From assembly GCA_030141605.1 (NCBI GenBank), contig JAQGDQ010000870.1, forward strand, positions 1 to 64,000: DNA of 64,000 bases. Reading direction: 5' to 3'. This document shows, piece by piece, positions 770 through 61,711 of this stretch. The position numbers and the translations under genes were made by a program. The notes beneath the pieces were generated by a model, which ran no database searches, had not been told where the DNA came from, and saw only the letters and a program-made list of their open reading frames with translations. The stretch is from Tubiluchus corallicola (taxonomy: Eukaryota; Animalia; Priapulida). How positions within the stretch are numbered: the first letter of the stretch is position 1; every line of letters starts with the position of its first letter.

Positions 770-2004
770 ATGAAGTTGTTACTAGTACTGGGACTAATTT
801 TCACGGTAAGCAATAAACATACAGTTTATAGAATGTATATACCATATTTGTCGTGGCATTCTCTTTATCGCGTCATCATCATCATCACCACCACCACTAC
901 CGCCACCGCCACCACCATCACCACCTACACCACCACCACCACAACCACACAATTTTGCAAGTTACCACACAAGTATTTTAAAAAATATACAATAAATAAG
1001 CTTGGCGCCTTCCTTTCATGAAACAGAAGCTCCGAATTTCGTTTTGCAAGGAAAAATTTTCTGGCAAAACTCATGACATCTATTTTGCAACTACACTTGA
1101 GACTAATAATGATCTAAAACTCTCTGTTGAGCTTCGAACCGTAAACCTCTCAACTAATAATGGTGCTGAAAAATTAGCAATGTTTAAATAGCTAGAAGTA
1201 ATAAATACATTTTTTGCTTTGCAGTTGAGTAGAGTAGACTCCAGTGGTGTAAGTTTTGGTACTGGTGCTGGCTACGGAGGCGGTGTAGGCTATGGTGGCG
1301 GTCTTGGATATGGCGGTGGTGCAGGCTACAGTGGTGCGAATTATGGTGGTCAACCGTACGATGTTACATACGACAAGGGTTCCTACGGCGCTCATCTGAA
1401 AGCGGCTTCTGGAGAAAAAGCTGTTGCTGCTGCCGCGAAATCCGCTGGACGTCTGGTGGATGCCAATTATGCCTTGAAGGACAAAACCCATGCGGACTCC
1501 AAAACCAAGGTCCACGCTTACCAACATGCTTACAGGAAGGGCTATCAATGGGCTGAGCCAAAGGAGCACTACAGATACAGCAAACGCAGACCCATTTATG
1601 GTGGATACGGAGGATATGGAGGTGGATATGGATTAGGTGGCTATGGTGGGCACGGTGGATTTGGAGGATATGGAAGTGGCCTTGGTGGTTACGGTGGATT
1701 TGGAGGTGGTTATGGTGGCTATGGTGGATTTGGTGGTTACGGTGGTTATGGGGGTGGCTATGGAGGTTATGGCGGTTACGGTGGCGGCCGCGGTGGTTAC
1801 GGCGGGTTTGGTGGCGGCTATGGTGGTTATGGTGGCTATGGTGGATTTGGTGGTTACGGTGGTTATGGGGGTGGCTATGGAGGTTATGGCGGTTACGGTG
1901 GCGGCCGCGGTGGTTACGGCGGGTTTGGTGGAGGCTATGGTGGATATGGTGGAGGTTACGGTGGATTCGGCGGAGGATATGGAGGTTATGGACGTGGATG
2001 GTAA
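770..2004 (+). CDS. SP1: secreted Gly/Tyr-rich (GGY/GGF repeat) structural-type protein, about 271 aa, 2 coding exons
   Basis: Exon 770-805 (MKLLLVLGLIFT, preceded by acceptor ttttgtag, followed by GTAAG) splices in phase 0 to exon 1225-2004 (tttgcag|LSRVDS...). This gives the signal peptide MKLLLVLGLIFTLSRVDS, then GYGGG repeats, a non-repetitive domain (1357-1602) and a long (GGY/GGF)n tail ending GRGW. Confidence 0.9.
873..950. repeat. (CAT)n/(CAC)n trinucleotide microsatellite in SP1 intron
   Basis: Directly visible tandem repeats; they explain the poly-Thr in the 770..1021 ORF. Confidence 0.9.
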
Positions 2005-2782
2005 ATAATTTCCAAATTAGTAGATTCACCAAATCGAAACTAGCCAAAGTTGTTTATTGTTTGTTAAATATTGTTGTTAACTAATAATATTAATTATTAT
2101 AATAACCATGATAACCATTTTTATGTTAGCAAACTGTGATAACAATTACACCTGTACTAATGACTGGTTGTGGGCGAAGCTGAATTATAAAAAGGAGCTC
2201 TTATTTATAATATTGAGGCCTATGTCGATGAGTGATGACGCTGTCTGTGATAGTAAGTTTTCTTTCAAAGGTATACATTCATGATCAATCATTGTTACTC
2301 ATTCTGTCAATGTTAACAGTTTGTATTATTAAGTGACCTGCAGACTGTGTAACTGTGACAAGCTGCTTATAAATAGATATTTTTGCAAAAAATACTTCTT
2401 GTTTTTTTTCGTCTTTTGACTTATAAGCTTGTGATATTACAAATGAATGTCATAACCATAGTAATAAGTAGCAATTGTTTTCAATCAATTTTAAAATTAA
2501 AAATCATTTCAAAATTCAGCACTATAGTTGAGACGTTGAACGAATTTGAAAACATTTACTGGCAAAAGTAAAGCATGTCCCATGATTGCTATTTCAATAA
2601 ACCTTTGCATTCAGTGTTTACGAATCTCCTCAGTAAACCATCAATAACTAACTGCAGTGTGGCTGCTCTACTAAAGCATGACAAATAAATAAATGAAACG
2701 TAGATCAGCAATCAAACAAGCAAACTGACAGACAAACAAAAAATTACTGCATACTTGTGAAACAAAAGTTAAATATATACAT

Positions 2783-2846
2783 ACACACGCACACGCACAC
2801 GCACACGCACGCACATACACACACACATACACACACACACACACAC

Positions 2847-5116: not shown

Positions 5117-5852
5117 ATGGAAATAATACATTTCCTATTGTTGCTAACAGTAAGTAATTGCATTTTATTTTCTTGTTATTGCAAAATTAGTGCGTCAAAA
5201 TAGAGCAGCAATAATAAGTGACTAAGCTGTAGCTGCTTTGCAAGTGTTTAGATAAGATAAATTGTAAAGATTTTTAGAGCTCAGCTTTGCTCGTGGTTAT
5301 TCGATTCGGTCACATGTATTACAGTTGAGCTGTCTTTTTCTAATCAGTTGTGTCCAATCATTTTGATTTTTATCCCATATGTAGTACCAAATGCTGTTTG
5401 AAGGATTAATCCTTGATTTTTTCACAACTTTTCAGTTGAGTTTGGGATCCGGTTTCAAGGTTCCTCTAAACAACGTCTACTACCACACAACCGGACCACA
5501 CCCGGATAAGTACCTTGGACCAGGATATGTAGGACATGGAGGCCTATCTAGAGCTGCGTATCTACCTATCTTAGGACAACAGGTGGATGGTGTCACCAAC
5601 GTACGACCTCTTTCAGGGCATACCGATCTGAGAACTCAACGAGGCTGGACGAATACGGTTCCTGGTTATGTGTTGGGTTTTGGTGGCAGAGTGGCATACA
5701 GCGATGAGGACCCGGTCAATAAGGTCATATCACACCATCAGGGTGGGTGGGTCCGCGGCGGGAAGGCAAATAATTTTCATTTAGCGAGTTTCAGTCCGTT
5801 TATGAACATCCGAATGGGGTCATACAGGCAGAAATTCCCGGATTTTGGCTAA
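5117..5852 (+). CDS. SP2: small secreted Gly/His/aromatic-enriched orphan protein, about 149 aa, 2 coding exons
   Basis: Exon 5117-5149 (MEIIHFLLLLT|GTAAGT) joins in phase 0 to 5436-5852 (ttttcag|LSLGSGFKVPLNNVYYHTTGPHPDKYLGPGYVGHGG...). The join creates a clean signal peptide, and the exon is GC-richer than its flanks. Confidence 0.82.
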
Positions 5853-7468: not shown

Positions 7469-7554
7469 TATAAATAGGCGTCTTCTCCACTTTTATAAAT
7501 TAAGCTGTGGGTAAATGCGTTCGTGTTCAGTGGCTTAGTGGACGAAAGGTAAGC
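7469..7554 (+). promoter_or_regulatory. putative TATA box and non-coding first exon of SP3
   Basis: TATAAATA at 7469-7476, a strong donor AAAG|GTAAGC at 7549, and an acceptor (ttcag, 9259) six bases upstream of the SP3 ATG. Confidence 0.55.
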
Positions 7555-8366: not shown

Positions 8367-9265
8367 TATTATATAATGACATTAATTTATTTACTTACTA
8401 CTTCGTTGTCCACAAAGAACAATATTTTAACTTAAATTTAGACTAACCGCCTAACAGTCGTCCCACTTGTTTTGCTAATGCCTTAAATGCCTTACAGAAA
8501 TGTTTCCAGCACTGTTGTTACTTTCCACAAAAAGTTGATGTAATTAATGTGATAATCTGATCATGACATCTACAACATGACTTACCGAATACACGAAAAA
8601 CTTGCAAGAAAAAGCAATCCGTTTCGTTATCGTTTTATTGCGTACACCTGTTGCTTTTTTATATTGTGGTTCAGAGCATTGATTCAAAACAGCGAAAACT
8701 TTGCGCTAATAATTTGTTCTTTATTGTTGATAGACCTAGTAACAGACTACATTTGGACTGTTGCAGTACGATTTACCTGTAGTCACATATTTTCTCTTTT
8801 CCTCATGATTATTCAGTTGCTTAACTAATAAACTAATTAACTGATCACGAAAAACTTCCAAACGAAAATTATAATTTAGTACTTCCGCCTCGTTCAAGAT
8901 TTTATCAAGTACAGAAATATTTTTGTTGACAAACAATAGATGGTAAAATTGTACTCAAAAATATTATACAGTAAAAACTGGTACACGTATATACGGGAAA
9001 AACTATAATAAAATGGAAAGGGGGAGCTGTGGTTAGATTGACCATGGTGCGAATGTACAGTAGTGGTGTAAACTAAAAGTTCCTAATAAAATACTTTGGC
9101 GCTGATCATAAACCATGTTTGGCGGATTCCTGCCGGTGGGATATGTACCGAGTTAGACTTGAGAATTACTCACGTCTCATTGAAATACAAAAATGGTGTT
9201 TTACATGGTACCAGTATTTCTGCATCTGCTACCTTTTAAAAGACACACAACTGCTTCAGATCAAA

Positions 9266-10576
9266 ATGGATTTCGTCTTCCTCCTCTTCGCCGTGTCCGT
9301 GTTCACTTCTGTTGTCGATGCGGAAGGCTACACAAAAGGGCCGGATTACTTTACAACCGTGATAGCTGGACCTTACACGCACGCTCGTGTTGTAGGAAAT
9401 GGTCAGAAGAGCGCTGTGAGCACTTATATCCGAGAAGGCCATGCGGCCGGCGCTGATTATGCCAGAGACCAGGCCCAAGCGGCGAAAACGTCGGCCCAAG
9501 CAAGAGGATACGACTATGCGCACAGGTATCAAAACTGGATATATATATATATATATATTTTACTCTTACTTAGACTATTAATTATCTAATTATAAATTGT
9601 GCCTAGGCTGCTTTTGAACTTTGATGATAAAATCCTAGACTGGTTCGGTCCAAAAATGAAAAATGAAAAGATTGTGGTTGAGCCTGAATTTGAACCAAAG
9701 ACTTTAGGCAAAGTGATTACCTTGTACGCATTTCACCTGAAGATTCCATCATGGATATTCCAATAATACGTTCTTATAAACAGATGGCACTACAATAACT
9801 GCGCGTTTTATCGCATCAATATGTTTACAGCATTTGTATCGCCAACTACTAAAACTGAGTATTAAACTAATAGAAGTTTATAGACGTTGAATTAAAGATT
9901 TAAAACATATTCGATTGCCACAATTGTAGCTGGCCATGTACCTGCTTATCATTGCAAGTATTACCAATGTAGCCATGCACAAAAACGGTAGAGAATAATA
10001 CAGTGAGTGGATGAGGCTTGCGTGATGTCAACTCAGAAAGTCATCAGTTTTTACTCTCTACATTTAGGTCCTCAGAACTAATGAGAAAACTGACATTGGT
10101 GCAATATTTTCATTTTCAGATCAGGAGCATCATACTATCAACCAAAGTTGTTGTACAGTTACGTCTATGATCAGCCTTTGTTGGGCTACAGAGATGTTAA
10201 TCCCAGCATTCCACACATTGATACAAACATTCAAAAATTGGATTTGCCAATGGTGCCATTTCCGTACCAGCATTTAAATGTACCAGTTAATCATGGACGC
10301 GAATCTACCTACGGTGATGGCACATCTGCTGGTTATCATGGCAAGGAAGATAATGAGTACTTTGACTCCAGATACAGAGCACCCTATGAAAACAATGGGT
10401 ACAGGGTGGAAGAAGGTTACGATGCGCCGTATTATGATCGGTACAATCATTATGGTGTTGACAGTCCTTATGGCGACGAATACAATTCTAAAAAATATAG
10501 AGATGATGGATATGATTACCCTAAAGATTTTCGTGCTCATAGTTATGGCCGACAAAACAATAATCCTTATTACTAA
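9266..10576 (+). CDS. SP3: secreted Tyr/Asp/Gly-rich protein, about 238 aa, 2 coding exons
   Basis: Exon 9266-9525 (MDFVFLLFAVSVFTSVVDA signal peptide ...GYDYAH AG|GTATC) joins in phase 2 to 10120-10576 (ttttcag|A TCA GGA...), restoring the frame of the 10148..10576 ORF. The C-terminal 91 aa contain 19 Tyr. Confidence 0.88.
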
Positions 10577-11979: not shown

Positions 11980-13972
11980 TTACTCTGAGTTTAGATAACC
12001 TGCGTGTTTATTGCTGTCTGCAGTGAAAGCCAAATAGTTCAGTTCATCTAGCCTAATCCGTCCTTGCCGTGAGGATTCTGGTATGTTCTTTGTATCTTCC
12101 TCCTGTAAGACGGCAGCAGCAGGCGAAACGATTTCTGGAAGCTGCTGTGGCGGCGGCGCTGGTTCTTCCGGCAACTCGGGAACAGGCGGAGTGTCCGGTA
12201 CACGGTCTGGAGGAATAATTGGTGGTGGAGGAATGATGGGTCTACCGCCATCAGTGTCTAGGTAACCTTGGTGTTTGAAACTAGGCTGCTGCCAGGCTAG
12301 CCAGTTCAACTGATCTAGAACAAGAGGCGGTTGAGCAGGCTCTGGAACTTTTTGCAAATCTTCTTCAGTTATCGCAGGTAAAGCAGGTGGAATAACCTCG
12401 ATTGGTTCTTCGTCCACAGGTGGTGGAACCTCAACAGGCGGTTGTATTTCGGGCCTGGGTGGCGGCACTATTGGTTGAATTTCTTCTACTGGTGGTCGTA
12501 TGATTGGTTGTATTGGTCGCACTGGCGGAAGAGTCTGCAACGGGCGTGTCGGTTGAACTGGTTGTTCTTGATTATAACCCTGATGTTTGTTACTTGGTTG
12601 TTGCAGAGCAAGCCAGTTTAAGAGATCCAACCTTAGTGGTGGCCGAACTGGTGGAATGTCCATTTCAATCTCATCAGTTATTACAGGTAAAGCGGGCGGT
12701 ACATCCGGTTGTGGCTCAGGAACAACAGGTCGGGTAGGCATGGGTAATGGGGGCAATACATTCGGCTGTGGCTCGGATGGTAGCGGTCGAGGTATCACAT
12801 CGGGTTCTGGTTCTTTGGGTGAAATATCAGGTACACGATTCGGTGGAATGACAGGAGGTTCTGGCCTGATTGGAGGTCTGGGGCGCACAGGCCTTTCTTC
12901 ATCAACATCTTGATAACCTTGATGTTTGAAGCTAGGCTGTTGCCATGCCAACCAGTTCAACTGGTCAAGAACAAGACGAGGCCTAGCCTCTGGAACATTT
13001 CTCAGATCTTCGTCAGTTATCACAGGCAAAGCTGGAGGAATGATCTCTACGGGAGGCTCCTCTTCATCTGGTTCCTCTCCTAGAGTAGGGAGTTCTTCTG
13101 GCGGTGGTGGTTGCTCCCTTCTTGGGGGTGGCGGTTCCTCTCTTCCTGGTGGCGGTCTTCTCCTTGGAGGTAGAGTATCAACATCTTGATAACCATGATG
13201 CTTGTAGCTAAAGTCCTCCTTTCCTAGGTAGTTTAGCTCAAGCTGGGCTGATGCTACACAGATCAACTAAACAATAAAAAACATCTATCTAAAAGTAACT
13301 GCCTTTCAGGCTTACTTGCCATTTTACTTTATTATTAGTTTGTACAGTAATTATATTCCAGTGCATAACACGACACATTCCAAATTAATTAAGCAGTTAA
13401 TCAGTTAACTAAACAGATCAACTAAACACTTAATCAGGCTTTTGCGCATTATTTTTTCTAATCAGCACTAATCATCAATGAATAGCAGCAAAACATAAAA
13501 ATATAGAAATGTTTTTTCTGTATTAAACATTCAAAATTTAATGCAGTAAAGGACAGCTATACTATGCCGTTGTCCTTATATTTCAGCTTTCTTTAATAAA
13601 AATATTAGTTCTTATTGCCGGGTAGTTTTGATTAAAAATCTTGCTATTACCAGTTTTACAGTAAATATTAACTTTGCGACGTTTCGGCCACTAGAGAGAT
13701 TAGTTTTACATTTTATAAGCAGCATTATAGAATTTAAACATCACGCACATTTAAAATGACAATAGCCCATAGAATCTCCTCTGTATGTTCAGCTTCAGAT
13801 TTTTTATAGCCAGAGCCTCATCTAACAAGCATTCGAATTTGTATTTAAGCGTTATTCTAATAATAAAGAGGAGCATATTGTGATTTTTGCACCTATAAAT
13901 CAAAATCTTAATGTTAAAAATGAGAAATCGAATAAGACTTGCCAGCAAGCATAAACCAGTTGATTTCTTCAT
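11980..13972 (-). CDS. SP4: secreted Pro/Glu-rich repeat protein with five LN[WY]L-x5-SxKHxGY motifs, about 438 aa, 2 coding exons
   Basis: Exon 13972-13943 (MKKSTGLCLL, donor GCAAGT) joins in phase 0 to exon 13266-11980 (tttag|LICVASAQ...), giving the signal peptide MKKSTGLCLLLICVASA. The second exon is an uninterrupted 428-codon frame with internal repeats. Confidence 0.88.
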
Positions 13973-14132: not shown

Positions 14133-14220
14133 TCCTACCTGATTCTCTTGTTTGCACACTTCTCTGGGATTACCAAACTCACTACAGTGCCGTAGTTTTT
14201 AATCATCTTCTCTTTTTATA
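14133..14220 (-). promoter_or_regulatory. putative TATA box and non-coding first exon of SP4
   Basis: TATAAAAA on the minus strand at 14220-14213, donor CAG|GTAGGA at 14138, and an acceptor (tttag, 13978) five bases before the ATG. Confidence 0.6.
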
Positions 14221-24980: not shown

Positions 24981-25047
<67 letters not shown>

Positions 25048-36700: not shown

Positions 36701-36732
36701 CATCATCATCATCATCATCATATTCACCATTG

Positions 36733-36774
<42 letters not shown>

Positions 36775-39700: not shown

Positions 39701-42700
39701 CTCATTTTCTACGTCAACCAGAGACACAAATTCCACCCAGTATATACAAGTATTAATTGTTGCCTTTGCATTTTTCTTTATATCTTTCTTAATTTTTATC
39801 TTTATCTTTATCTTTATCTTTTTCTTTTTCTTGTTCTTGATCTTGATCTTGATCTTGATCTTGATCTTGATCTTGATCTTGATCTTGATCTTGATCTTGA
39901 TCTTGATCTTGATCTTGATCTTCATCTTCATCTTGATCTTCATCTTCATTTTCATCTTCATCCCTACCTTCAACTTTTGCCTTTGCCTTTGCCTTTACCT
40001 TTATCTTTTTATTTATCCTTGTCCTTATCCTTATCCTGTATTTCAGTCTCTCTTACCTCTGTCTCTATCTTCATTCCATTTGTATCTGCATCTTTACTGT
40101 ATCTGTATCTGTATCTGTATCTGTATCCGTATCCGTATCCGTATCCGTATCCGTATCTGTTTAAGTATCACTGTCTCTGTCTCTGTTTTTACATCTACCA
40201 CATTCAACCTGTTCCATTTACTAAAAAAATGCTGCTTTTAATTTTCAGTTATACGTGGGAAGTGCCTGTTTTTTATACGACTTCCGACCAAAGAAACTTT
40301 ACCAATCCAAGTATTGACTGGATGCACAAAGAAAACTGTAAGCATTGTCAACCAAAATTGACTACTGAGCTGTTTCATGTTTTACAGTTTTTAGATGTCA
40401 GATTACTTTTTTTAATTTCTCTACAGTTATTACTCTCAAGCAATCTGTGCCAAAAGACTCTTGGATCTTGCTCAACGCTGGCGTGAGGGGATTCTACAGG
40501 ATCCTTTATGATGAACGGAACATGGATCTTATTAATGAGCAGCTACAACTGTCTCATCAAGTATGGGTTCACACAACTTGCGTTACATCAGGCATATGAA
40601 TGTTTTATTTAAATGAAACAATACCTATGCTCAATTGATTGCGTTTCCATGACTTAATAGCCAGTATATCCTCGGCAATTAAATGTCTCTTTAACTGGAT
40701 CCACCATTTCGACTTTTTATAACTTTTCGTCGCCAATTACAGGTAATTGGAAGATAATTTCTCAGATCAGCTCTGATCAAAGGCAAGAAATCCTATTTAA
40801 TCTAGACTTTTCACTTCAAGCGTATTCATCCTAATTTAATGTAATAAATTTTTACTTTGCTGTAGAGTATAGATGTGAGAAATCGAGCGCAACTGTTCGA
40901 AGATGTGTTTGAGTTAGCAAGGTTTGCCTTTAATGTTCATTGAACTAATAATTAGACGTAGTATATTTATTTTAATTAATGGTTCACAATCTTAATTTTA
41001 AGATTATCATTAATGACAGTACGAACACACAATTAGCAAATTTTGAAACTGAACTTGTCCGAAAGAAATGAAACATGAATAAGTCGGGGGCATAATCTGG
41101 ATTTGAACCAGGGATCTAAAAGAAAAGATAGGTGAAAAAGCTGGGAAAAAAGCTAGTATAATTGTCACAAATAGAAAGCCTTTGGTTGCTTGTTGCTAAA
41201 ATGTTTTGTAATTGAGCCCACTCTTGCTGGCTAGGAGCGCGCATAAAACATTGAATTTTGTGAACTTTTGCAGGGCCTTGGTTTTGGATCAAGTCAGCGC
41301 ATTGAAAATGCTTGAGTACTTAGATAGAGAAGAAGATTATTTACCTTGGCATGCAGCACTAACTAAGCTCAAATACTTGGATCTGATGCTCATAAAAAGT
41401 GGTTCATACGGTCTTTTCAAGGTATAACTGCCAGAGAAACAAAAAAATGCAAAGAAGCAATTTATTTAAACGTTATCCCACATCCACGCTTAACTGAATA
41501 TGTGATCTTGTTATAGATGCAAGACATTTTGACTTGTGACCGCCACATATATGATTAATTTCCATCAGCAAGCGTCTGAGAAAATATTTAATATTGAAAT
41601 GCCACATTTAGGGTTGCTTAATGCAATTGTTTTTATTTTAGGAGTTTCTAGTAAATCAGATTAAGCCTGTTTACACGATGCTTGGCTGGGATGATCACGA
41701 AGACAAGTTCCAAACGTAAGATGCTCTAAAATTAATTTGTTTCTTCCAAGGTGACTGAAAATTATTTTTGCCATGCTTTTAAATTGATAAATAAATTATA
41801 GGAAAGAAGATCCTAAACAGTGTACCCAAATGGGAGTCCCACTCGGAGAAATACTCGTCTTTTGTAATGTCCAATTCACTTCTCCTTGTTTTTTATAATT
41901 TCTATACAGACTAGAACTAATCATTATTACATGCTTGCCCTAGGGCGTTCGACTTCTTAAGCAAAACAATATTTTAGCGCCTCGAGTCGCCTGGGCAAAA
42001 TTGACAAAAATTAGACAGCTGTTTTATTTTGGCTTAACAATGATCGACCAGGCATCTGAAAGAAAACGTCACTTTTTAATGGGACTAAAATACGTCACTC
42101 GCCACCATTGGCATAAAGTCGACACATAGCCATAAGTGTTAATAATTTAACTTTTCAATAGCCACGCATTTGTCTTTGCAGATATTTAAGAACTTTTAAA
42201 GAAAAAACATGAGAGTGTAAGAAAGAATCGAAGAAAAAATCCAATTACAGGCCTGAAGCGTTTTCATTAGTGCAAAAGAAGAATTAGAAATTACAATCAC
42301 AAGATATTTTTGCACTAAGAATAGAGCAAGCATCTTGCTAACAAAAGACGCATTCATTGCAGGTTATTGCAGATTGACGCCTTGACAACAGCCTGTTACT
42401 ATGGCAACGAGGAGTGCATCAAGATGGCGAAAGAGCTCTATCGAGAATGGATGAACACGGGAGTAAACGAGTATGGTTACCTACCTTTGCCACTTTTTTA
42501 ATAATGCAGTCTTAACTCTTTATATTATGTGGCACAACTTAATTTTCCACCTTTTCACTGTATGGTGATTTTTGTCACATAGACATTATAGCCTTAATGC
42601 AAAATAGTTAGGTGGTCACACTTAATTAAATTTTGGCATTGATGTTTCATAAAGTCGAATAATTGAATGCGATGATTAGTGTGCAAATTCGGTGTGGCAA

Positions 42701-45700
42701 ATCAGGGTTTTTAGTTAGTCAATGTTTTTAAACGAAGTTGAGTTGGCCTAACAAAATTATTAGATGAAGTAAAGTCACTTATAAAAAGTTGCTGAAAAGA
42801 GTGTAGGAAAGTGAGAGGAAGGTTTATTGGATAAATAGAAATAACTGACAGCGAATCACTGAGAGGAGTGAAGATGCAAAAAGTACAATCAAATAAGGAA
42901 GAAAAATTTTGATGAATAAGGTAACAAGAGGAAATCTACATTATTTACAACAGAGAGAAAATGACGAGGAGACAATAAAAGCGTTCGTTGCAGCAGGTGT
43001 GGGTGAAATTTCGTTTTCTTGGGAAACAAACAAGCTAATGTGTTCAAACGCAACAAAGAATTTATAATAATTGCGCAATATGTCGCTAGTATTTTTATAA
43101 TAAATGAACGAAATGCTACGTTTGAAAGCGCCAAAAATAGTTTTTAGATATAAGTAATACTGTTGATTTTGTTACTAATTGCAGAATCTCCCCTGATATC
43201 CAGGGAATTGTGTACTGCACTGCCATAGCGAATGGGGGCGAAGAGGAGTGGTACTGGGCGTGGGATCACTACATCACTAGCCAAACACCTTCCGAGACCA
43301 CAAAACTTCTTCAAGCCATGGCATGCTCTAAGCAAATATGGATTCTGCAAATGTAAGTTCACCAGTTAAGCCAGAAAGATAAACAATGCCCAGCGCAGTC
43401 CTATTTTAGATTTAGTAAGTATTGACAAGATATTGGTTCTTCACGGTGAAAGATATTAGGAGCCACTAATGCCGATTACATATGACATACTGATCACTGT
43501 CTTATTTGTTGGTTAAACATGTTTTTAGAATGCAATATTTTACTTGAAATTTGAGTTTATAAATTGCACCTCAAGGTGAAAATGAACGCTTCTATTAGTG
43601 TCTATAAGTTAGCTGTATAGAGCCCAAAACACTTTATTCTGGTTGTAAATAAAGTTTGTTAAACCATAAACCGGCAAAACGATAAAATTGACATCTGTTT
43701 AGGTTTTTAAAAGTACTGTTTAGGTTTTTAAAAGTACAATTTAAAAATATTCTTTTTTTAAACTGTAGTTTGGTGATAAGAAGCTATGAGATCCCGGCGT
43801 TAGATGGGGTGACCTCGTGCGTGACACCCCTGAAAGTATTAATTATAACCAACTCTGAACTGTATTCCGTCAATGCATCTCGGTGTCTTCCTCCACTACT
43901 TCCGCTGTCTGATTACACTGTTTGATTTGAGCCGCCTTTGGTTGAAGAAGACTGCATAAATAATCACGACCTTTCATCTCAGATGTTATAACTCTCCGAT
44001 AGAAGCATTTGCCTTCTTCTGTTACTGTGGAATCTATATAATAATTTCCGCTGTAGTATAGATATCCCTAATTAGGGAACTAATTAGCCTTTACAATAGT
44101 TTGCGCGAGCCCTGTTTACGCGGATTCTAAAATTAGAAAAAAGTGCAAGTGGTAAGGTGTATTTCATTCAGTTTTTTCTACTTTCACTTCGGAAGTTTCT
44201 TAAATCATTCGCGCTAAGAAAGCAGTTTTTACTAAAGCAATTTTAAAAGGGCTTCCAGTTTGTCGACACTAACGGTTTAATTATGTTTCAGTTGATTAAA
44301 CAACTAACAAAGGTTAGGGAATACGTGGTTTTGCAATACGTAGAAAGATGTGTTCGAACGTATCAACCGAAGTAAAGTAACTTCGAATCTGTTAAGTGTA
44401 TGGGCGGGTATTTACCAGGAAACCTGCTTCACAGTAGCTTCGTCTGCCATATATAATGCCCCGTTCGAGAGAGCATATTTTTACCTTTGCCGGTTCAGTG
44501 TCTTGACTATTATCCTACATATATATATATATATATGTAGTATATATATATATATATATACATATACAGTATACATATGTGAGCTTCATGCCTTCTCTTG
44601 TTTAAGGCTTTTTATTTTTAATATCAGTGGAAACTTCACTTGTATGTAGTTTTCCATTTAAGCGCTCAACTTTTCAAAAAGCGTCTTAGCAATGTGAATA
44701 ATCCGTGTTTACTATTTGTGTGACGACAGAAATCAATAACGCCGAGCAGTAATAGATTCCTGACCACTGGATACAAGACTCATTCTGAACATTTCACTTG
44801 ACGTACTGTCCGTGTTTCTCCTTATAGCCCGTGTAATTAGGATGCATTTATTTTCGAACAGCTAAGAAAACTCCCCCGCTCCAGTGTCACACCATAAAAT
44901 AATAGCCCTTGATAACGAACCTTCGTAATGAATCAGATTTCGATCCCCGCTACATCCATCTGCATTAAGTATTCCCTGTTCCTGCCTGCTACATCCCAGT
45001 TTTCAGAGTGCTGAACTATATAAACGGCTTTTACATATTATAGCGTGTGTAGAATTTAATTTTATAGGTATTTGGAGAAAGTTCTGAATTTAGATGGGGT
45101 TAGGCAGCAGCATGGCGACCGGGTTATACAATATGTAGCCGAAAATGTACTAGGAAGTTACCTCGCCTGGAATTTTCTTAGACAAAATTGGTTTGTACTG
45201 TACAACAGATACACGTACTCGTCATTGAACCGAATGGTTACAACCGTGACCAGTTGGCTCAACACTGAATGGGAACTGGCAGAAGTGAGTTACGTTTTCT
45301 ATTAGTAAATTGGAATTAAATTAAACGCAAATATTTGAAAATAAATAGGGGCCTGCTATAAATGGTTTGACCTTGATTAATCACTCAGAAACATACTTCA
45401 TTCTTACACATACGTACTTAAATCATTATGACGCATAATTATTGCGACATACATAATTAAAATACAAAATGCATGCGGCAAAAATTAGTGCTTATCGCAG
45501 CATAAATTATCATGTAATTATGTGTTTTCACTGCTGGCGCTACTGCTTTCAAGCCCATTTTCGCTTGTCGACCCATATTTTTAAATTCTCACGGTAATTT
45601 AGGTACGTCAGTTTGTCAAGACAATTACAGGACATGGCGATAATGAAGCTTACTGGTCTACGGCGATGGAGAACATTGCAGCTAACATAAAGTGGGTCGA

Positions 45701-45752
45701 GAAAAACGAAAAGTCCATTCATGAGTGGCTAGAATCGTTGCAGGATAATTAA
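33710..45752 (+). CDS. aminopeptidase N-like M1 zinc metallopeptidase, type II membrane protein, about 965 aa, 19 coding exons; catalytic Tyr substituted
   Basis: Exons 33710-34338, 34598-34753, 35378-35501, 36055-36175, 36809-36963, 37546-37659, 37950-38087, 38501-38566, 38925-38990, 39565-39749, 40249-40337, 40427-40560, 40866-40921, 41274-41421, 41642-41715, 42363-42470, 43185-43352, 45068-45284, 45603-45752; all GT-AG, total 2898 nt, open throughout. Features: GCCACCATG start, N-terminal TM anchor, Ser/Thr stalk, RLP, TQMQ...[31 protein letters not shown]...WFGNLVT...[12 protein letters not shown]-terminal ERAP1-like region; AATAAA at about 45863. Confidence 0.93.
36395..36788. repeat. 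trinucleotide low-complexity tract (GAT/GGT/CAT) in aminopeptidase intron
   Basis: Directly visible; source of the spurious poly-His, poly-Ser and poly-Val ORFs. Confidence 0.9.
39790..40185. repeat. compound hexanucleotide array with drifting unit in aminopeptidase intron
   Basis: TTTATC > TTGATC > TTCATC > TTTGCC > TGTATC > CGTATC. Confidence 0.9.
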
Positions 45753-46870: not shown

Positions 46871-48187
46871 TTAATATCCTCCGCGTCTAATGTCGACAGG
46901 TAACCTACTCTTTGGCCCGGAATGTACAGGCAGTGATTCAACGTGAACTGGTTGGAAGCGCACTCCACCAGGTGTCTCAAATGCATACGCAGCACCCTCT
47001 TCTACAGCTCCCTCGCCAGAAGCAGTCTGCTGGTATTGCTGGGTGGCATCTTGAGCAGCTTGCCTGGTAGCATCCAGTTGTATTCCAGCTTCGCCAGCTC
47101 CGACTCCAACTCTTTCAGCAGAACTGGATTCCGTCTGCCGAGCGTTCCCAGAACTGTATCGTGTTCCAATAACAACTTGCTGTTGTCGTCCATTTATTGC
47201 TGGACGTGGAGCTGCCGCAGCCGCTTCTGCTCGGGCTCCATTGAAGTCGAATCCTTCGATGTTGACGTATCTGTCTCCAAATCGTTCAATTCCGAAAGCT
47301 TCAGAGTCGATATTTCCAAAATTATTGGGGTTGATGTCGCCGCGGCCAAAACCCTGGATTCCGACTGACCTTATGTTGGAAGTGACGGCAGGAAAGCGCC
47401 TTACGGGTGCTGCATCTACTGCAATGCGTCTCGCTTGTACTGTGGTAACAGCTGGGGCGGCGCCAACAGTTCTGGTAACTCCAACATTTCCAACAAGACC
47501 ACTGCCAATAGTGCCACCAACACCTCTGTAGCCATTAAGGCCCCCATAGCCTCCACCATACCCATTGTAACCTCCACGGTTGCGGATTCCTTGGAATCCT
47601 CTTCCACCAAATCCGCCATATCCACCCCCCAATCCGCCAAAGCCTCCACCATAACCTCCCCTTAATCCCCCGTAACCACCACCAAGTCCACCATAACCAC
47701 CATAGCCACCTCCTAGCCCACCATATCCACTTCCAATCCCACCATAACCACCTCTGAATCCACCACCAATCCCTCCAAATCCTCCATAGCCGCCCCCTAA
47801 TCCACCATATCCTCCACCTATTCCACTATACCCACCTCTATACCCACCACCAATTCCCCCAAAATAGCCACCCCCTGTTCCACCATAGCCACCCCCTATT
47901 CCACCATAGCCACCCCCTATTCCACCATAGCCACCCCCTATTCCACCATAGCCACCCCCTATTCCACCATAGCCACCCCTTATTCCACCATAACCTCCAC
48001 CAATTCCCCCATATCCTCCACCAGTTCTTCCAATTCCACCATATCCTCCACTAATTCCACCATATCCTCCGCCAATACCACCATATCCGCCTCCAATTCC
48101 ACCATATCCGCCTCCACCTAGTAAGAATGACCCTAGAGTACAAGCTAGGGAGCAAGACATCACACTCGTTAGGTACAGCGTCTTCAT
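46871..48187 (-). CDS. SP5: secreted Gly/Tyr-rich (GGGYGG[ILF] repeat) protein with non-repetitive C-terminal half, 438 aa, single coding exon
   Basis: Open 438-codon ORF with signal peptide MKTLYLTSVMSCSLACTLG, an acceptor (ttttag|G ATG) immediately upstream, and 21-nt tandem repeats encoding GGGYGGI. Confidence 0.9.
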   Translation of the reverse strand: MKTLYLTSVMSCSLACTLGSFLLGGGGYGGIGGGYGGIGGGYGGISGGYGGIGRTGGGYGGIGGGYGGIRGGYGGIGGGYGGIGGGYGGIGGGYGGIGGGYGGTGGGYFGGIGGGYRGGYSGIGGGYGGLGGGYGGFGGIGGGFRGGYGGIGSGYGGLGGGYGGYGGLGGGYGGLRGGYGGGFGGLGGGYGGFGGRGFQGIRNRGGYNGYGGGYGGLNGYRGVGGTIGSGLVGNVGVTRTVGAAPAVTTVQARRIAVDAAPVRRFPAVTSNIRSVGIQGFGRGDINPNNFGNIDSEAFGIERFGDRYVNIEGFDFNGARAEAAAAAPRPAINGRQQQVVIGTRYSSGNARQTESSSAERVGVGAGEAGIQLDATRQAAQDATQQYQQTASGEGAVEEGAAYAFETPGGVRFQPVHVESLPVHSGPKSRLPVDIRRGGY

Positions 48188-49499: not shown

Positions 49500-49597
49500 T
49501 CTTACCTGTTACAAGTATGGCACAAGCTTTCTTAGTACTCAAATCGTAGTGTTAAGCAAATGAGCGAGGAGGCTTTGCCATCTTCTTTCTTTTATAT
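49500..49597 (-). promoter_or_regulatory. putative TATA box and non-coding first exon of SP5
   Basis: TATAAAAG on the minus strand at 49596-49589, donor CAG|GTAAG at 49505, matching acceptor at 48189. Confidence 0.6.
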
Positions 49598-55870: not shown

Positions 55871-58800
55871 TCATTTCGTGTATTTTGGGACGTATTTAGT
55901 CTCTGTTGGAGGTACTGTTACTGTGTAAGCGGTTTTAGCTCCGTTGGCGCCCTCTTGTAAAGCGGAATCGTGTTTCTGCTCTCGGAGCACGTGATCACCC
56001 TTGCCGCGGTCGTAACCGTAGCCGGCTCCGCCAAATACCGCACCACCTTCGCCGAACGGGTGTCCGTAATTACCGACCTTCCTGCCGCCTAGCTGGGCGG
56101 GAACTGGATTAAAGAAAATATGACCGTATTGGTAGCCGTATCTGAAACCTCTAGAAATGTCGTATCCGGCTTTCTCTACCCTATACGCGGATGCGTTTCT
56201 AGCTATTGTGTAGTTTTTAAACTTTCCACGCTCGTGCTGCTCTGCACTACTTTTTGTCTCATATTCTTCGCCTGATCCTTTTCCTCCTTTTTCGAAATTA
56301 TCACTCTGAATGATTTTGAGAGGCTTCGGTTTATAACTCGGATCATCGGCAGGACCAGCATGTGTTACTCCGTAATCTGGAATGGCGACCCTTTTTTGTG
56401 ATACTTGGACAGAAACTCCGTCATTCGGATCGTGGTAGATCTCCTGAGGTGCTGGGTCGGCTGGAACAGGTTGTTGCTCCGGCACATCTCGGCTGATGAA
56501 CGATGGTGGTGCTCCAATTGAGTAACCAAACGGGGTATTGTAGACCTTCATACTGGATAATGTGCCTGGGTCACCCAGGAATACCTGTTGTTGAACAGCT
56601 TGTTTAGCTGGTTGCAGAGAATCTTGAGTCACTTGAAAAGCTTGTTCTTCTTGAAGTACAGCTTGCTGAACTGGTTGGAAAACCCTTTCCTGCTGTAAAG
56701 TTGGATCTGCTGCTTGAAGAGTCTTTAGCTGCGGGTCCTGGAAAGCCTGCTTCATGATTTGGTATCCTCGGACTGGTTGCAGAAGGTCTACTTGGGCAAC
56801 TACCGGAACTCGTGCACGTGTGATTTTTGTCCCGGAGCTGAAAACTGGTGACGAGAAACTAGGTTGGCTACTCAGAACTGGAAGCCTGTCGACTATGTTG
56901 GTGCTGGCTTGGCCTTCATCGCCAAAATTCACATTTGTATAATCATTGGTTATGGTGACCGCATAACCATCGTCGCGAGGTAGTGAAGGTGCAGAGTTTG
57001 GCTGCTCTCTTGCAATGGCACTGGTCATCACTGTCAACCATGATGGGTAGCTGTGTTGCGCCGCCGGATAATTTGGATATGGCTGCACCACAGAGTAACT
57101 TGGTATTGCTGCTGCTGTTTGAATATTTCCTGTATCAAGCACTCCTGGTCTGGCGTATGTGGGTGGGTTGACTGGTGTAGCAGATCGTGGCACAAAATCA
57201 CTAATGGCTGATCCTTGACTAAGTGTCACCTATAACAATTAAATAGAATTACTATTAGATAGAGATTGTATTTTGCATACAAAAATGTACCATTATATAA
57301 TGTGAATCCATCATTATGACCTATGAACTAGACTTTTATCTCAGCAGATCTGGTGAAAAAATCTATTACGTATTAGCATCCCTTTCAGAATCAGAGTTTT
57401 TGTTAAAGTCATACAGTCAGTTGCACGACGTCTCCATCCGATGTTGGCGTGTCACCTTTAATGCAGAAATGTCAAAGTCAAAACTCACAGTCAATATAGT
57501 CAACTCTCGTTCATGCTACCCAAGAAATCTCTAGTGGACATACGTCAGAAGCACTTGCGCAAGTGACGCTAATGTTTTAGGATAAGCTGATGTACAGGGT
57601 GTTACATAAACTTTTTGCTAGTAGGCGTACAGTAACTACGAGTAATATTTACATCATTATAAAGTTTTGCTGAATCAATAGAGAATCTATCAAGACCTCA
57701 GTATTTAGCGTAGAAGACCGCTGCGTCTCGCGCTATCTGCAATACGTACATTGACAGGTATCGAAAGGACATCTACAAGATGTATTGGACGATCTTGTGC
57801 TTCGAGTTTCCGATCACATCTCACAAGACTGCAGGCTGTGCGAGCTGCGTGACACCTTTACATCAAAAAATTTTGAGGACGCGATAGATTCTCTATTAAT
57901 TCAACTCAGTTTGATATTATAAATTGTTCTGTGCTATCAGAGTATAACACGTAACCTAGCAAAAGTTATGTTATACTCTATATAATCTAAAGTTTAGGAT
58001 ATACGCGTGGAACGGGAGCAGGCATCATCAGGAAAATTCAGTCAACTTATTTATTGCAGTAATCTATACTACAAAAGTGCAAAGTGTTCACATAGTCTTC
58101 TTGCACAAGTAGGTTTTATGACAAGTAGGCTATATCAATTCTACACCCACAAACTATATTAAATTATTACGTATCCAACGCTATTTCGGCATTTCTGCAA
58201 TAATAAACTTGATTTAAAGTCAGATTTAAATCCAGCAAACAAGACAAAGCAAAGCCGACTGTAATTAACAAACTATACTTATATAATGGATATTGTTATT
58301 ATTATTACTGTGCTTTACCTTAAATACCACGCGCCAGGTAGGGCAGAGAGCAGGTACCATTTTTTAAATTATTGGTACGACCCGCCTGTGGTATCGAACT
58401 TCACGATCTCCCAGACGGAAAACAGACGCGTAATTTATTACACTATAACGTCTGGTTGGAGAAGTGTGAATATTGTGATTAAATCCTGTAACTTTCGACA
58501 ATTTCATTAAAATCGATTTTGGCATGACCACTACAGTTATTATTCAACATGCCAAATCATTTAGGTTTAGGTCTTCAATCAACACAACTGCAAATTAAAC
58601 AGAAGCTTTAGAAAGTTAAGTGAAATATAAAATTTCTTTAATTTAGGTAACTAATTGAATCGATAACTGTTTTTTTTTGTTCTAGCTCTACATTTTAGCC
58701 ACTCATACATTCAACTTAATATGTTCGGTGACAAAATACTCAAAAATGTTATACATGACACACAATGAGTTCGCCACCTCATTAAACATTTGACAGAAAA

Positions 58801-61711
58801 CTGAGCGTCTGTTGTGCGGCCCAGGTAATACAAGTCAACCGTTAATGCTTTGGTCGTGCAGAGAACACATGTATATATTAATGAGATACAAATGTTAATT
58901 ACAGGTGTTTTGGTGATGGTTCAAATCCACAGTTCATTAAATTTTGGTATTAAAGTTGAAAGACAGGAAATGTGAAAATGTGGTATACAGCCTTAATTCG
59001 AGCTATAGGGGCCTTCTGCTTACAAGGCGTGCCATAGACCAATAGGCCACAATATCACCACGTTATAATTTATGTCCAACCGAATTCAGCATTTCCAGTG
59101 TTAGATCGCTCAAGCTAAATTGATTCTAACTAATAGTTATTATTTTTGAATCATTTTGAACCAAAAGATTTTAGTAGGAAATTAATTATTATAATCTTAA
59201 TATCAAGATCACAATTAATGATGGTACAAAACCAAAATTAACTAAATTTTGGTAGAAAAGTCAACTGAAAGACAACGAATGTGAAAAATTTTTAATACCT
59301 CCTCTTCGATTTGAACCAGGGACTTTTTGTTTAAAAAGCAGATGCCTTCGACAGCTAGGCCACCGTATTCTAGTGATCAAGGCAGCACAAAGTTCATCTC
59401 TTATAGCTGACCAACTATTGTTGTGAACAATCTAACAATCTAACATTGGAAATGTCGAATTCAGTTGCCGAATCTATAAGGGATGAAATTTGGATGAGCT
59501 GTTTTGAGATGGTTGTTCACTGGTGGAAACTGCGTTTACTCAGTACCTTTGAAACAGGGTTGCTCCGGTTAGTAACGTTTTCAACTCGGGTTCGAAGCTG
59601 GGTACTAAACCCAAATCGCTAGTCTTCTGGACGTTGTTGTGGTTGTCCTCGTTGTCATTGTCGCTGTTGTTGTTTGGGATAATCTGTTGAAAAAAGCCTA
59701 AGGCTCCGTGAACTCGCAATAGATTGTCATGAAACTTTACAGGACTATACAAGAACGAATTCTGCATCGATCGGCAAAGCCAGATTTTCGATCAGTCATT
59801 TTGAATTCAAAGCTAAAAGACATCATGGACATCAAAACAATTACATCAAGTTTAGTGACCTTGGCATTAAGATTTTCTCCGGGAGTTTTCTAACGACATG
59901 GAAAAACCGCACAGTGATCCTGTAGTCCTTTCTTTCATCTTCCTAATCATATGAAGCAGCACAAACTTGCCCGTTAAGTGACACTGACATTAATAAGTTG
60001 TCACAAGCATTATCACAGCATTTTGATCTTGACTTTTTTGTCAAAAACACTACCGCACCGGAGCGCAAAGTAACTCAACTAAGTCCGATCACTCCGGTGA
60101 CGGAGATTATTTTAAAAATTTTGAAATGGACACCGGCATTTTTTCTCTGGCTTTTTTCTCTTCATCATCCCAAACACCGCTACACTTTGAATTTCAGCTT
60201 TGGCTTTTCATTTTCTCATCATCCCAAACACTGTGAGTGTAATCTCTTCATCGTCAGACAGATATGACAACAGGGAGAACAAAACAAAATGAATTTTAAT
60301 GCGGGCAGGCGAGTCACAAACGTATCGCAAATAAACCTCGTTACTGTATTCCCAGAGTTTGGAAATGAAAATTGAAATACTGATCCATCTGTTGACCGTT
60401 TCTCGAATATTTCCTAAGGATAGTAATACTTACGATAGTGAAATAAGCAGGGTAAATAGACTCATTTCTCCAACTCATTAAGTCAAATGTTTTCGTCTTT
60501 TCTTAGCGCAGTGTTACATAATTTCTAAAGACAACTCGAGGAATAAAGAGACCAAAAATAATTATATTTGCTCTTGAACAAGATGACTCATCCTTTAGTA
60601 TTCCACATTTTACGCAGTGTTACAAAGACAGGTGAGAAATGGTCTCGTACCCGTCCTCACAACATCCTAGGCATCAACTCCCTACAGTCCAAAGTCTTAG
60701 ACCAATAGGTCAGCAAAGAAAGTGACAGGCTAAGAATTTAACCTTTTCGCATCATCATTCGTAATTAAAACGCTGTTAAACGGTCGTTTGGTCTTGCATA
60801 AAAGCCAGGAGAAAGTAAACCGATTGACCCAAATAAATAATACGTTTCATTCCTTAACCACACATTTCATTCATGCACAATGTTGAACAACAACTGCGTG
60901 AACATTTCAACCCATATTGAAAGTTTGTACAGTAAGTGTGATTCCAGATACATTTGCCTTAGGCCAGTAACTGTTGTACTGCAATTTCACCTGTAGTAAA
61001 ATTCGTCTGCTATATATACAATGTATTTCGCGTTAATAATGGACCTGCTGATCTACTTACAAATCTTTATACTAAGTACTGATTTCACTTTATGTAGGAA
61101 TCGTAATTGAGGTGCTACCTGAATTGTGATATATATAAAGCCAGAAAGTTCAAATTCCTATAGATGAGTAAGATTGGTCAATTCACAGTAACTAAGTAAT
61201 ACTATTATTAATAAGCAACTTAAATTTCTATTTTAATGCCCCTTGAAATGAAAAAAGGCTTTATTAACACTAATTTTTTGTATTATATTACCTGAAGAAA
61301 GATTTAGTTTCACTAACAAGTAAAACTAACTGCAGCCAAATAAAAATATCAACTAATAAATAATCTGTAAACCAATGATTATTTATCCATTTCACAAACT
61401 TACGTTAAACAAGTATATTAAATAATCCTGTAGTAGTACGAAAAACTGATGTTGTCATTTAACAACTAAAATTATAAATGCATTTTTATAATGTGAGTTT
61501 GAATAAACAAATTTAACCTTTTCAAGGTCTTAAATTCTTCGATCTGGAACTTCTTAAGGAAACTTATTTGAAAGGATGTGTTTCAAGGAAACAAAGGAAA
61601 TGTTTTGTAACGATTTTCTGAATCAAATTTGTATCTAGATTTTTAAGACTACATTTTATTTTTGACACTTACCAAAGACAAAAGGAAAAACGCACCCCCC
61701 GCTTCCAACAT
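55871..61711 (-). CDS. SP6: secreted Pro/Gln/Val-rich protein with Gly/Tyr-containing C-terminal module, about 465 aa, 2 coding exons
   Basis: Exon 61711-61673 (MLEAGGAFFLLSL|GTAAGT, acceptor at 61726 upstream) joins in phase 0 to 57229-55871 (ttatag|VTLSQGSAIS...), giving the signal peptide MLEAGGAFFLLSLVTLSQG. The second exon is a 452-codon open frame. The first-exon assignment spans a 4.4-kb intron and is less certain. Confidence 0.8.
57595..57980. mobile_element. Tc1/mariner-type MITE in SP6 intron
   Basis: TA|CAGGGTGTTACATAAACTTTTTGCTAG...CTAGCAAAAGTTATGTTATACTCTA|TA imperfect TIRs with TA flanks, plus a second internal inverted pair (gaatcaatagagaatctatc...ctca / tgagg...gatagattctctattaattc). 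Confidence 0.7.
58318..58455 (-). mobile_element. tRNA-derived SINE fragment, Meta-domain-like
   Basis: Minus strand: tRNA-like head with B-box GTTCGATACC, then GGGTCGTACCAATAATTTAAAAAATGGTACCTGC...CCTGGCGC, which resembles the conserved MetaSINE central domain as I recall it (not aligned). Confidence 0.55.
59080..59420 (-). repeat. interspersed repeat copy containing a tRNA-like segment (about 59300-59365)
   Basis: Minus strand GGTGGCCTAGCTGTCGAAGGCATCTGCT...GTCCCTGGTTCAAATC has A-box/B-box-like motifs; homologous to 21490-21835. Confidence 0.6.

What the first reader, a model, noticed from the sequence alone, without database searches (positions are those of the whole stretch)
770..61711. 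Cluster of six orphan, secreted, cysteine-free structural-type proteins: candidate undescribed biomaterial locus
Seen: six genes within 61 kb, each with a signal peptide, one or two coding exons, low-complexity composition (GGY-rich SP1 and SP5, Tyr/Asp-rich SP3, Pro/Glu-rich SP4, Gln/Pro-rich SP6, Gly/His-enriched SP2) and no Cys in any mature chain. Three have clear TATA boxes with non-coding first exons. Established: Gly/Tyr-rich secreted proteins form sclerotised invertebrate materials (squid suckerins, oyster shematrins, Phragmatopoma cement Pc1, trematode eggshell proteins) and are often cross-linked through DOPA-quinone or dityrosine. Inference: this is a co-regulated multi-component kit for one secreted structure (tube, cocoon, egg capsule, cuticle/jaw or glue). 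I do not recognise any of the six as a named family. The cluster may continue beyond both window edges.
Basis: partly seen in the sequence, partly recalled or inferred. Interest (0 to 1): 0.88.

Follow-up and report, generated by a model that had tools for sequence, protein, structure and literature searches.

The report
Undescribed priapulid cuticle-type protein family
Six intact genes for predicted secreted, cysteine-free, repetitive proteins lie in two groups in the genome of what is probably a priapulid worm; two of them carry an unnamed 87-residue domain shared with at least 14 Priapulus proteins, and they likely help build the moulted body cuticle, whose proteins in these worms we found described nowhere.

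Summary
The six genes are real: open frames, good splice sites, and cysteine only in signal-like N-termini. SP4's unusual GC-AG intron is bridged by a contig from a relative. Two corrections. (1) It is not one block: SP1-4 (13 kb) and SP5-6 are 33 kb apart, with a cholinesterase-like gene and an 18-exon aminopeptidase between them. (2) SP1 and SP3 are not orphans. They share an 87-residue, gap-free domain with strictly alternating conservation. A profile search of 1.84 billion proteins gave 20 hits: 13 Priapulus caudatus proteins, 4 unnamed, 3 spurious. Most are signal peptide + domain + Gly/Tyr/Ala/Gln tracts, labelled only by composition. No Pfam or PDB match. The esterase also points to a priapulid host. 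Best reading: a cuticle-gene-rich region, with the domain likely doing the job the Rebers-Riddiford domain does in arthropods. Clusters of unrelated, Cys-free, secreted low-complexity genes are already reported in Drosophila. A single co-regulated kit is unsupported: no shared promoter motif, and the family looks dispersed in Priapulus. Cuticle location, chitin binding and cross-linking are untested.

The parts
770..2004 (+). SP1, 271 aa: signal-like N-terminus split by a phase-0 intron, short GY tract, divergent copy of the priapulid domain, GGY/GGF tail; net charge about +11
1345..1605 (+). Priapulid domain in SP1 (residues 53-139), uninterrupted by an intron
   Evidence: 29.1 bits against a profile built only from database hits, 0 of 500 block shuffles
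5117..5852 (+). SP2, 149 aa, Gly/His-enriched; same phase-0 signal-peptide intron and T|LS junction as SP1; no relative found (not searched against the large protein libraries)
7469..7548 (+).
9266..10576 (+). SP3, 238 aa: signal-like N-terminus, priapulid domain, Tyr/Asp-rich tail with YGD, GYR and DDGYDYPK motifs
9335..10189 (+). Priapulid domain in SP3 (residues 24-110), with a phase-2 intron at domain column 64
   Evidence: 102.3 bits, 0 of 500 shuffles; 55 of 87 identical to P. caudatus XP_014668263.1
10858..11979 (-). SP4 3' untranslated region, about 1.1 kb, ending just past the palindrome AATAAATTTATT (10868-10879)
   Evidence: contig pieces of X2
11980..13972 (-). SP4, 438 aa, acidic (about -32), Pro/Glu-rich; five KH[HQA]GY motifs spaced 92, 113, 104 and 89 aa, four preceded by an LD(Q/L/E)LN(W/Y)LA motif; GC-AG intron 13267-13942
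   Evidence: X2 contig joins 13266 to 13943
14140..14220 (-). Predicted TATA box and non-coding first exon of SP4
24700..28527 (-). Intervening cholinesterase-like carboxylesterase (coding exons 28527-27026 and 24890-24700; last exon not fixed); nearest named relative is from Priapulus caudatus
33710..45752 (+). Intervening M1 aminopeptidase (aminopeptidase-N-like), 18 candidate exons, GAMEN and HELAH motifs present
46871..48187 (-). SP5, 438 aa, single coding exon: GGY[GI]G repeats, two AAP[AV] motifs, Ala/Gln-rich C-terminal half
49506..49596 (-). Predicted TATA box and non-coding first exon of SP5
55871..61711 (-). SP6, 465 aa, Gln/Pro-enriched, Tyr/Gly-rich C-terminus
56105..56305 (-). Possible degenerate, split copy of the priapulid domain in SP6 (residues 322-349 and 372-388); inconclusive
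   Evidence: HMM 2.1 bits, 30 of 500 shuffles; two-block score 0 of 1000, but the blocks were chosen after seeing the HMM pieces
62441..62696 (-). Predicted TATA box and non-coding first exon of SP6

Best explanation
The six genes encode predicted secreted, low-complexity proteins of a probable priapulid worm that likely serve as building blocks of its cuticle, and SP1 and SP3 carry an unnamed 87-residue domain, shared with at least 14 Priapulus caudatus proteins, that likely anchors them in that matrix. Shown: the gene models, compositions and absence of mature Cys; the SP1/SP3 domain and its family; splicing of SP4 in a relative. Inferred: the domain forms long beta-strands with one conserved Gly/Ala/Tyr face, which would pack on chitin or on its own kind, as the Rebers-Riddiford domain does in arthropod CPR proteins. 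Inferred: the varied Gly/Tyr, Tyr/Asp and Pro/Glu flanks tune stiffness and supply Tyr and His for dityrosine or quinone cross-links. Inferred: SP4 acts as a long disordered spacer with five aromatic linking nodes. The region is best read as one cuticle-gene-rich neighbourhood among several in the genome, not as a self-contained kit.
For: Host: the esterase's best named hit is P. caudatus, 417 bits against 366 for the next. It groups with that protein at 98/97 among 6 rows, and its second exon, not used in the search, scores 128 against it versus 53 against gecko cholinesterase. SP3 is 55 of 87 identical in the domain, and 50% over 158 aa, to P. caudatus XP_014668263.1. Family: 13 of the 14 taxon-named representatives among 20 hits are P. 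caudatus. 15 of 18 family proteins have a hydrophobic N-terminus and 11 of 18 have no Cys after residue 25. 11 of 17 aligned rows span 87 columns without a gap. Conservation alternates strictly over columns 13-64 (entropy 0.7 vs 2.2 bits; 0 of 20000 column shuffles; conserved face Ala 21%, Gly 19%, Tyr 11%). Motifs of ecdysozoan cuticle proteins: AAP[AV] twice in SP5 (0.01 expected; motif recalled), GGY 28 and 25 times in SP1 and SP5, YGD and GYR twice each in SP3 (p 0.035, 0.018, post hoc). Four of six genes have an intron inside the signal peptide, as in most Drosophila CPR genes (PMC2793513 passage). Absence of Cys is called a hallmark of cuticular proteins (PMC2932725). SP4 is transcribed and constrained: an X2 contig joins the predicted GC-AG intron, and 3 of 3 listed coding indels keep the frame. 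That priapulids have a moulted, chitin-containing cuticle with hardened teeth and a larval lorica is recalled, not from a call.
Against: No tissue, stage, proteomic or binding data. The motifs are short and also occur in eggshell, vitelline and peritrophic proteins (PMC2932725) and in mollusc shell proteins (recalled). No Chitin_bind_4, GYR or YLP Pfam match in the six proteins or in 14 family members. The only fold of the domain (2-sequence alignment, pLDDT 41) shows helices, not strands, although it is too poor to weigh. SP2, SP4 and SP5 lack the domain and have no relative found, so their role rests on composition and position alone. Atlas hits of SP4 to arthropod GYR/YLP clusters score 0.83 or less, which is lead level only. 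The esterase tree has six rows and no lophotrochozoan, kinorhynch or loriciferan sequence.
Confidence: 0.62

Rival explanations
1. One reading: the six form one co-regulated kit for a single secreted structure (for example teeth, scalids or the larval lorica).
For: Six predicted secreted Cys-free genes in 61 kb, with SP1-4 coding regions 1.4-3.4 kb apart. Complementary charges: SP1 +11, SP5 +10, SP4 -32. Similar TATA plus short non-coding first exon design in four genes.
Against: Two intact enzyme genes fill the 33 kb between SP4 and SP5. Shared 7-mers 8 vs 6.8 expected and 8-mers 1 vs 0.95 in four promoters; 8 of 9 recalled regulator motifs not enriched, E-box borderline at p 0.048. The domain family lies on 13 differently sized P. 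caudatus contigs, in a fragmented assembly. SP3 and SP4 converge with predicted overlapping 3' ends.
Confidence: 0.17
2. They are structural proteins of a non-cuticular secreted matrix: egg envelope, gut peritrophic matrix, mucus or adhesive-gland secretion.
For: The same Tyr motifs and low-complexity design occur in Drosophila eggshell, vitelline and peritrophic proteins (PMC2932725). An aminopeptidase-N-like gene, typically a gut enzyme (recalled), is a neighbour.
Against: A family of at least 14 paralogues with one fixed domain and variable flanks resembles the large cuticle families more than small eggshell sets (inference). No Cys-based chitin-binding (peritrophin-type) domain is present.
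Confidence: 0.15
3. The six are functionally unrelated neighbours; for example SP4 is a precursor cut into repeated KHQGY peptides, and SP2 or SP6 are defence or signalling proteins.
For: Only SP1/SP3 are significantly alike. SP4/SP6 falls to 9 of 750 under block shuffles and looks compositional; the other pairs tested are at chance.
Against: The five SP4 motifs are not flanked by dibasic cleavage sites and are not followed by amidation signals (sequence). All six lack mature Cys, which a random set of secreted proteins would rarely do.
Confidence: 0.06

Closest known systems
Arthropod CPR cuticular proteins (Rebers-Riddiford domain, Pfam PF00379)
   Same: Signal peptide, one conserved Cys-free domain of similar size rich in Gly and aromatic residues, low-complexity flanks, multigene family, tandem arrays, intron within the signal peptide (PMC2793513 passages).
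   Different: No PF00379 match in the six proteins or 14 family members. The priapulid domain is 87 columns, gap-free, with unbroken period-2 conservation. Chitin binding is untested.
[quoted passage not shown]
   Same: Clusters of 3-10 Gly- or Pro-rich, signal-bearing genes with no Pfam domain, Cys only in the signal peptide, not recognisably homologous to each other.
   Different: Different phylum. Here two members share a real domain, and the six are split into 4 + 2 by enzyme genes.
Nematode epicuticlins (Asu-EPIC-1; PMC9612446)
   Same: SP4: short first exon plus long repeat exon, acidic, Pro-rich disordered repeats each with a conserved Tyr motif. SP3 has YGD and GYR twice each.
   Different: SP4 repeats are 89-113 aa (epicuticlins 49-71) and end in KH[HQA]GY, not YGD/GYR. 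SP3's motifs are not in tandem repeats.
Uncharacterised Priapulus caudatus proteins XP_014668263.1 / XP_014668264.1 and 12 paralogues
   Same: True sequence relatives. SP3 matches XP_014668263.1 at 55 of 87 in the domain and 50% over 158 aa.
   Different: They carry only automatic labels (uncharacterized, shematrin-like, loricrin-like, keratin-like, elastin-like, FUS-like, RPB1-like); no function is on record in the calls.
Shematrins, suckerins, trematode eggshell proteins
   Same: Gly/Tyr repeats, secreted, little or no Cys.
   Different: Resemblance is compositional only. No sequence match was found, and the host is probably not a lophotrochozoan.

Membership tests
CPR (Rebers-Riddiford) cuticular proteins | Chitin_bind_4 (PF00379) domain | tested here: not met
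   0 of 7 SP exons, 0 of 6 SP segments at E<=10, 0 of 14 family members
CPR (Rebers-Riddiford) cuticular proteins | Signal peptide, no Cys in the mature chain, low-complexity flanks | tested here: met
   (signal judged by hydropathy only)
CPR (Rebers-Riddiford) cuticular proteins | Binds chitin; present in cuticle | not testable with these tools
   needs binding assay and proteomics
GYR/YLP-motif cuticular proteins (PF02756, PF02757) | Pfam GYR or YLP match | tested here: not met
   Atlas feature similarity of SP4 only 0.83, 150 of 256 features
Nematode epicuticlins | Tandem repeats of 49-71 aa, each with YGD and GYR | tested here: not met
   SP4 repeats are 89-113 aa with 0 YGD and 0 GYR; definition from PMC9612446
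Nematode epicuticlins | Short signal-coding exon 1 plus long repeat exon 2; disordered, Pro-rich, Tyr motif per repeat | tested here: met
   SP4 model, intron bridged in X2; disorder inferred from composition only
Drosophila-type cluster of unrelated low-complexity secreted genes | Three or more genes under 10 kb apart, signal peptides, no Pfam domain, Cys only in the signal | tested here: met
   SP1-SP4 meet it; SP5-SP6 are a separate pair 32.9 kb away
Unnamed priapulid 87-residue domain family | Match to a profile built only from database hits: SP3 and SP1 | tested here: met
   102.3 and 29.1 bits, 0 of 500 block shuffles each
Unnamed priapulid 87-residue domain family | Match to the same profile: SP6 | tested here: inconclusive
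   two ordered partial matches; 30 of 500 by HMM; 0 of 1000 and 5 of 1000 in post hoc block tests
Unnamed priapulid 87-residue domain family | Match to the same profile: SP2, SP4, SP5 | tested here: not met
Shematrins | Basic RKKKY-type C-terminus (recalled) after Gly-rich repeats | tested here: not met
   C-termini are GRGW (SP1) and RRGGY (SP5)
DOPA- or dityrosine-cross-linked materials | Tyr modified or cross-linked in vivo | not testable with these tools
   Tyr is 16%, 14% and 7.5% in SP1, SP3 and SP5; chemistry untested

The most novel reading that the evidence does not exclude
The 87-residue domain is the priapulid cuticle's own core module: a long beta-ribbon with a Gly/Ala/Tyr face that binds chitin or self-assembles. 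It would be a third molecular solution to the moulted ecdysozoan cuticle beside arthropod Rebers-Riddiford proteins and nematode collagens/cuticlins, and the first named cuticle-protein family for Scalidophora. SP4 would be an epicuticlin-like cross-linking spacer of the same system.
Probability: 0.4. Interest if true: 0.72.

Novelty: new variant of a known kind. Interest (0 to 1): 0.52.

Why it matters
All ecdysozoans moult a cuticle, yet the known cuticular protein families are described as arthropod-restricted, which is noted as an open puzzle (Willis, quoted in PMC9612446). Priapulids are the branch usually used to infer the ancestral moulting animal (recalled), and my paper searches found no description of their cuticle proteins. 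A short, well-aligned domain with at least 14 paralogues gives a direct handle: it can be searched across kinorhynchs, loriciferans, nematomorphs, tardigrades and onychophorans, expressed, and tested for chitin binding. It would also correct about a dozen misleading RefSeq labels. The cluster itself is of a known kind and adds little.

Tried and rejected
Word-index protein searches found nothing for the SP1 domain (42 candidates) or SP4 (7986 candidates scored). The first was a false blank, since the full profile search later found the family, so SP4's blank is weak. SP2, SP5 and SP6 were never searched against the large protein libraries; SP5 only had an exact look-up, which was negative. ESM Atlas: no usable hit for the SP1 domain. 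JGI metagenome scans: none for SP4 or the domain. PDB by sequence: nothing significant for the domain. Rfam: 0. AlphaFold2 models of the domain (pLDDT 41) and SP2 (pLDDT 33) were unusable, so no fold search was run. A two-copy complex prediction of the P0006 domain gave no answer; it is no evidence either way. Sequencing runs: no RNA holder listed. In X2 (RNA is a guess; about 90% like the window) no contig covered the unique parts of SP1, SP2 or SP3; a part without cover is no evidence on expression. Contig depths were not used. A hand alignment putting the domain in SP5 was rejected. SP4/SP6 similarity was rejected as compositional. Three of the 20 profile hits (P0019, P0022, P0025) were dropped: long repeat proteins of microbial type matching only 21-25 profile columns. 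No whole genome is held, so synteny and flanking windows were not examined. Scan notes by place, relatives and sequence returned nothing.
Full report
Observation. The window is AT-rich animal DNA with many microsatellites. I rebuilt the six genes by coordinates. All are open from ATG to stop with canonical acceptors, and five have GT donors or a single coding exon; SP4 needs a GC donor. Cys occurs only in the first 16 residues of SP4 and SP5. Each protein starts with a hydrophobic stretch and has no later membrane-length segment; this is hydropathy, not a signal-peptide predictor. A TATA box followed by a splice donor lies upstream of SP3, SP4, SP5 and SP6.

The layout is 4 + 2, not six in a row. 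The coding regions of SP1-SP4 are 3.1, 3.4 and 1.4 kb apart, SP5-SP6 7.7 kb, and SP4-SP5 32.9 kb. The gap holds a cholinesterase-like carboxylesterase (PF00135, E 1e-127) and an M1 aminopeptidase, for which I found 18 open candidate exons through to a stop. A scan for other Gly/Tyr/Pro/Ala-rich frames and a tblastn of the six against the window found no seventh gene.

Transcription. Two runs were offered: X1 behaves as DNA (it covers introns) and X2 is guessed to be RNA. X2 is about 90% like the window. One of its contigs joins 13266 to 13943, exactly the predicted GC-AG intron of SP4. Its pieces cover SP4 exons and a 3' region ending at 10858, and 3 of 3 listed coding indels are multiples of three. 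So SP4 is a real spliced gene in a relative. Nothing comparable was obtained for the other five.

Host. The esterase search returned 5 proteins at E <= 1e-100 among 7989 scored: an unnamed one (492 bits), Priapulus caudatus acetylcholinesterase-like (417), then gecko (366), ray (358) and mite (357). The window's protein shares gaps and motifs with the first two and groups with them at 98/97 in a six-row tree. Its second exon, not used in the search, scores 128 against the Priapulus protein and 53 against the gecko one. With the SP3 result below, a priapulid other than P. caudatus is probable. Other scalidophorans are not excluded.

The shared domain. SP1 54-137 and SP3 25-108 align without gaps, 21 of 84 identical, 0 of 1000 full shuffles and 1 of 10000 block shuffles. 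A two-row profile searched against 1.84 billion representatives gave 20 hits at E <= 0.001: 13 P. caudatus RefSeq proteins, 4 unnamed Logan proteins and 3 long microbial-type repeat proteins that match only 21-25 columns and were dropped. One more P. caudatus protein, P0026, is a cluster mate of the best hit on a contig of the same length. A profile built from the 17 hits alone is 87 columns long, gap-free in 11 rows, and scores SP3 at 102 bits and SP1 at 29 bits, 0 of 500 block shuffles each. SP2, SP4 and SP5 do not match, and SP6 gives two ordered fragments that remain inconclusive. SP3 is closest to XP_014668263.1 (55 of 87); SP1 is a long branch. All four unnamed proteins stop or lose similarity at column 64, where SP3 has its intron, which suggests a conserved intron (inference).

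Nature of the family. 15 of 18 members have a hydrophobic N-terminus and 11 of 18 lack Cys after residue 25. The flanks are Gly-, Tyr-, Ala-, Gln- or Pro-rich and differ between members. Source names are compositional guesses such as shematrin-like, loricrin-like, keratin-like and FUS-like. None of 14 members scanned matches Pfam, and the profile finds nothing in the PDB. Conservation alternates strictly over columns 13-64: 0.7 versus 2.2 bits, 0 of 20000 column shuffles, conserved positions mostly Ala, Gly and Tyr, variable ones Ser and Thr. That pattern predicts long beta-strands with one close-packing face. The only model I obtained, from two sequences, had pLDDT 41 and showed helices, so the fold is unverified. 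The 13 P. caudatus representatives lie on contigs of 13 different lengths, none equal to the esterase's contig. The family therefore looks dispersed, although that assembly is fragmented.

Mechanism. A fixed domain with exchangeable low-complexity flanks, a signal peptide split by an early intron, no Cys and many paralogues is the design of arthropod CPR cuticle proteins (PMC2793513, passages). Priapulids moult a chitin-containing cuticle (recalled). I therefore read SP1 and SP3 as cuticle proteins whose domain likely docks on chitin or on other copies, and whose Tyr-rich flanks are likely cross-linked. SP5 has GGY repeats and two AAP[AV] motifs, SP3 has YGD and GYR twice each, and SP6 has GYxY twice (short motifs, chosen after seeing the sequences). 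SP4 resembles nematode epicuticlins in plan, with acidic Pro-rich spacers and one conserved Tyr-bearing node per repeat, but fails their repeat length and motifs (PMC9612446: abstract, passages, sections 7 and 17). None of location, binding or cross-linking is shown.

Co-regulation. The four candidate promoters share no more 7- or 8-mers than random windows, and 8 of 9 recalled regulator motifs are not enriched; the E-box is borderline at p 0.048. With the intervening enzymes and the dispersed family, a single kit is possible but unsupported.

Prior knowledge. Cornman 2010 (PMC2932725, parts 1-3 of 5 read) reports Drosophila clusters of 3, 4, 5 and 10 genes for Gly- or Pro-rich secreted proteins with no Pfam domain, Cys only in the signal peptide and no mutual homology, which is the same kind of locus. 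For priapulid cuticle proteins, searches gave 0 papers, 2 and 1 unrelated listings, and no relevant title in three broader listings; KHQGY gave 0. These were search listings only. The library lacks most subscription journals and I read no supplements, so a mention in a genome paper's tables or in older morphology journals could be missed.

Verdict. The arrangement is a known kind. The new element is an apparently undescribed, well-defined domain family, seen here only in Priapulus among named sources, that is a good candidate for the core cuticle module of priapulids. The range rests on one search with a two-sequence profile and could widen with a deeper profile. Interest 0.52; novel case 0.4 probable, 0.72 if true.

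Noticed in passing
window 10868-10879: Perfect palindrome AATAAATTTATT between convergent SP3 (+) and SP4 (-). It is the first AATAAA after the SP3 stop and the last one in SP4's 1.1-kb 3' region; an X2 contig ends at 10858. It may be a two-way poly(A) signal with short overlapping 3' ends.
   Followed up: partly
window 13267-13942 (-): GC-AG intron inside the SP4 signal-peptide coding region, bridged by an X2 contig.
   Followed up: yes
window 24700-28527 (-): The cholinesterase-like gene has GGSAG at the catalytic serine instead of the usual GESAG; its two closest relatives have GCSAG and GSSAG. It appears to belong to a priapulid-type subfamily.
   Followed up: partly
window 1632-1876, run X2: X2 holds several contigs that fit SP1 only inside the GGY repeat and run on into unlike Gly/Tyr/Arg-coding sequence, so the relative probably has further GGY-rich transcripts.
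   Followed up: no
window 9108-9530, run X1: One X1 contig differs from SP3 exon 1 at 9 listed coding places, 5 of them amino-acid changing: an allele or a close paralogue.
   Followed up: partly
window 21989-22090: Degenerate interstitial TTAGGG-type repeat.
   Followed up: no
window 25072-25606: About 530-bp element with terminal inverted repeats beginning CAGTGGCGTAAC, flanked by CA microsatellites; MITE-like, inside the esterase intron.
   Followed up: no
window 51177-51545 (+): Reverse-transcriptase fragment (PF00078, E 2.5e-9) between SP5 and SP6, probably a decayed LINE.
   Followed up: no
window 22474 (-): TATAAAAAGCAGAAG resembles the SP4 and SP5 core promoters, but I saw no coding exon downstream.
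   Followed up: partly
P0012, P0014, P0018 (Priapulus caudatus RefSeq): These models lack an N-terminal signal; P0012 and P0014 show a signal-like stretch internally, so their annotated starts are probably wrong.
   Followed up: no
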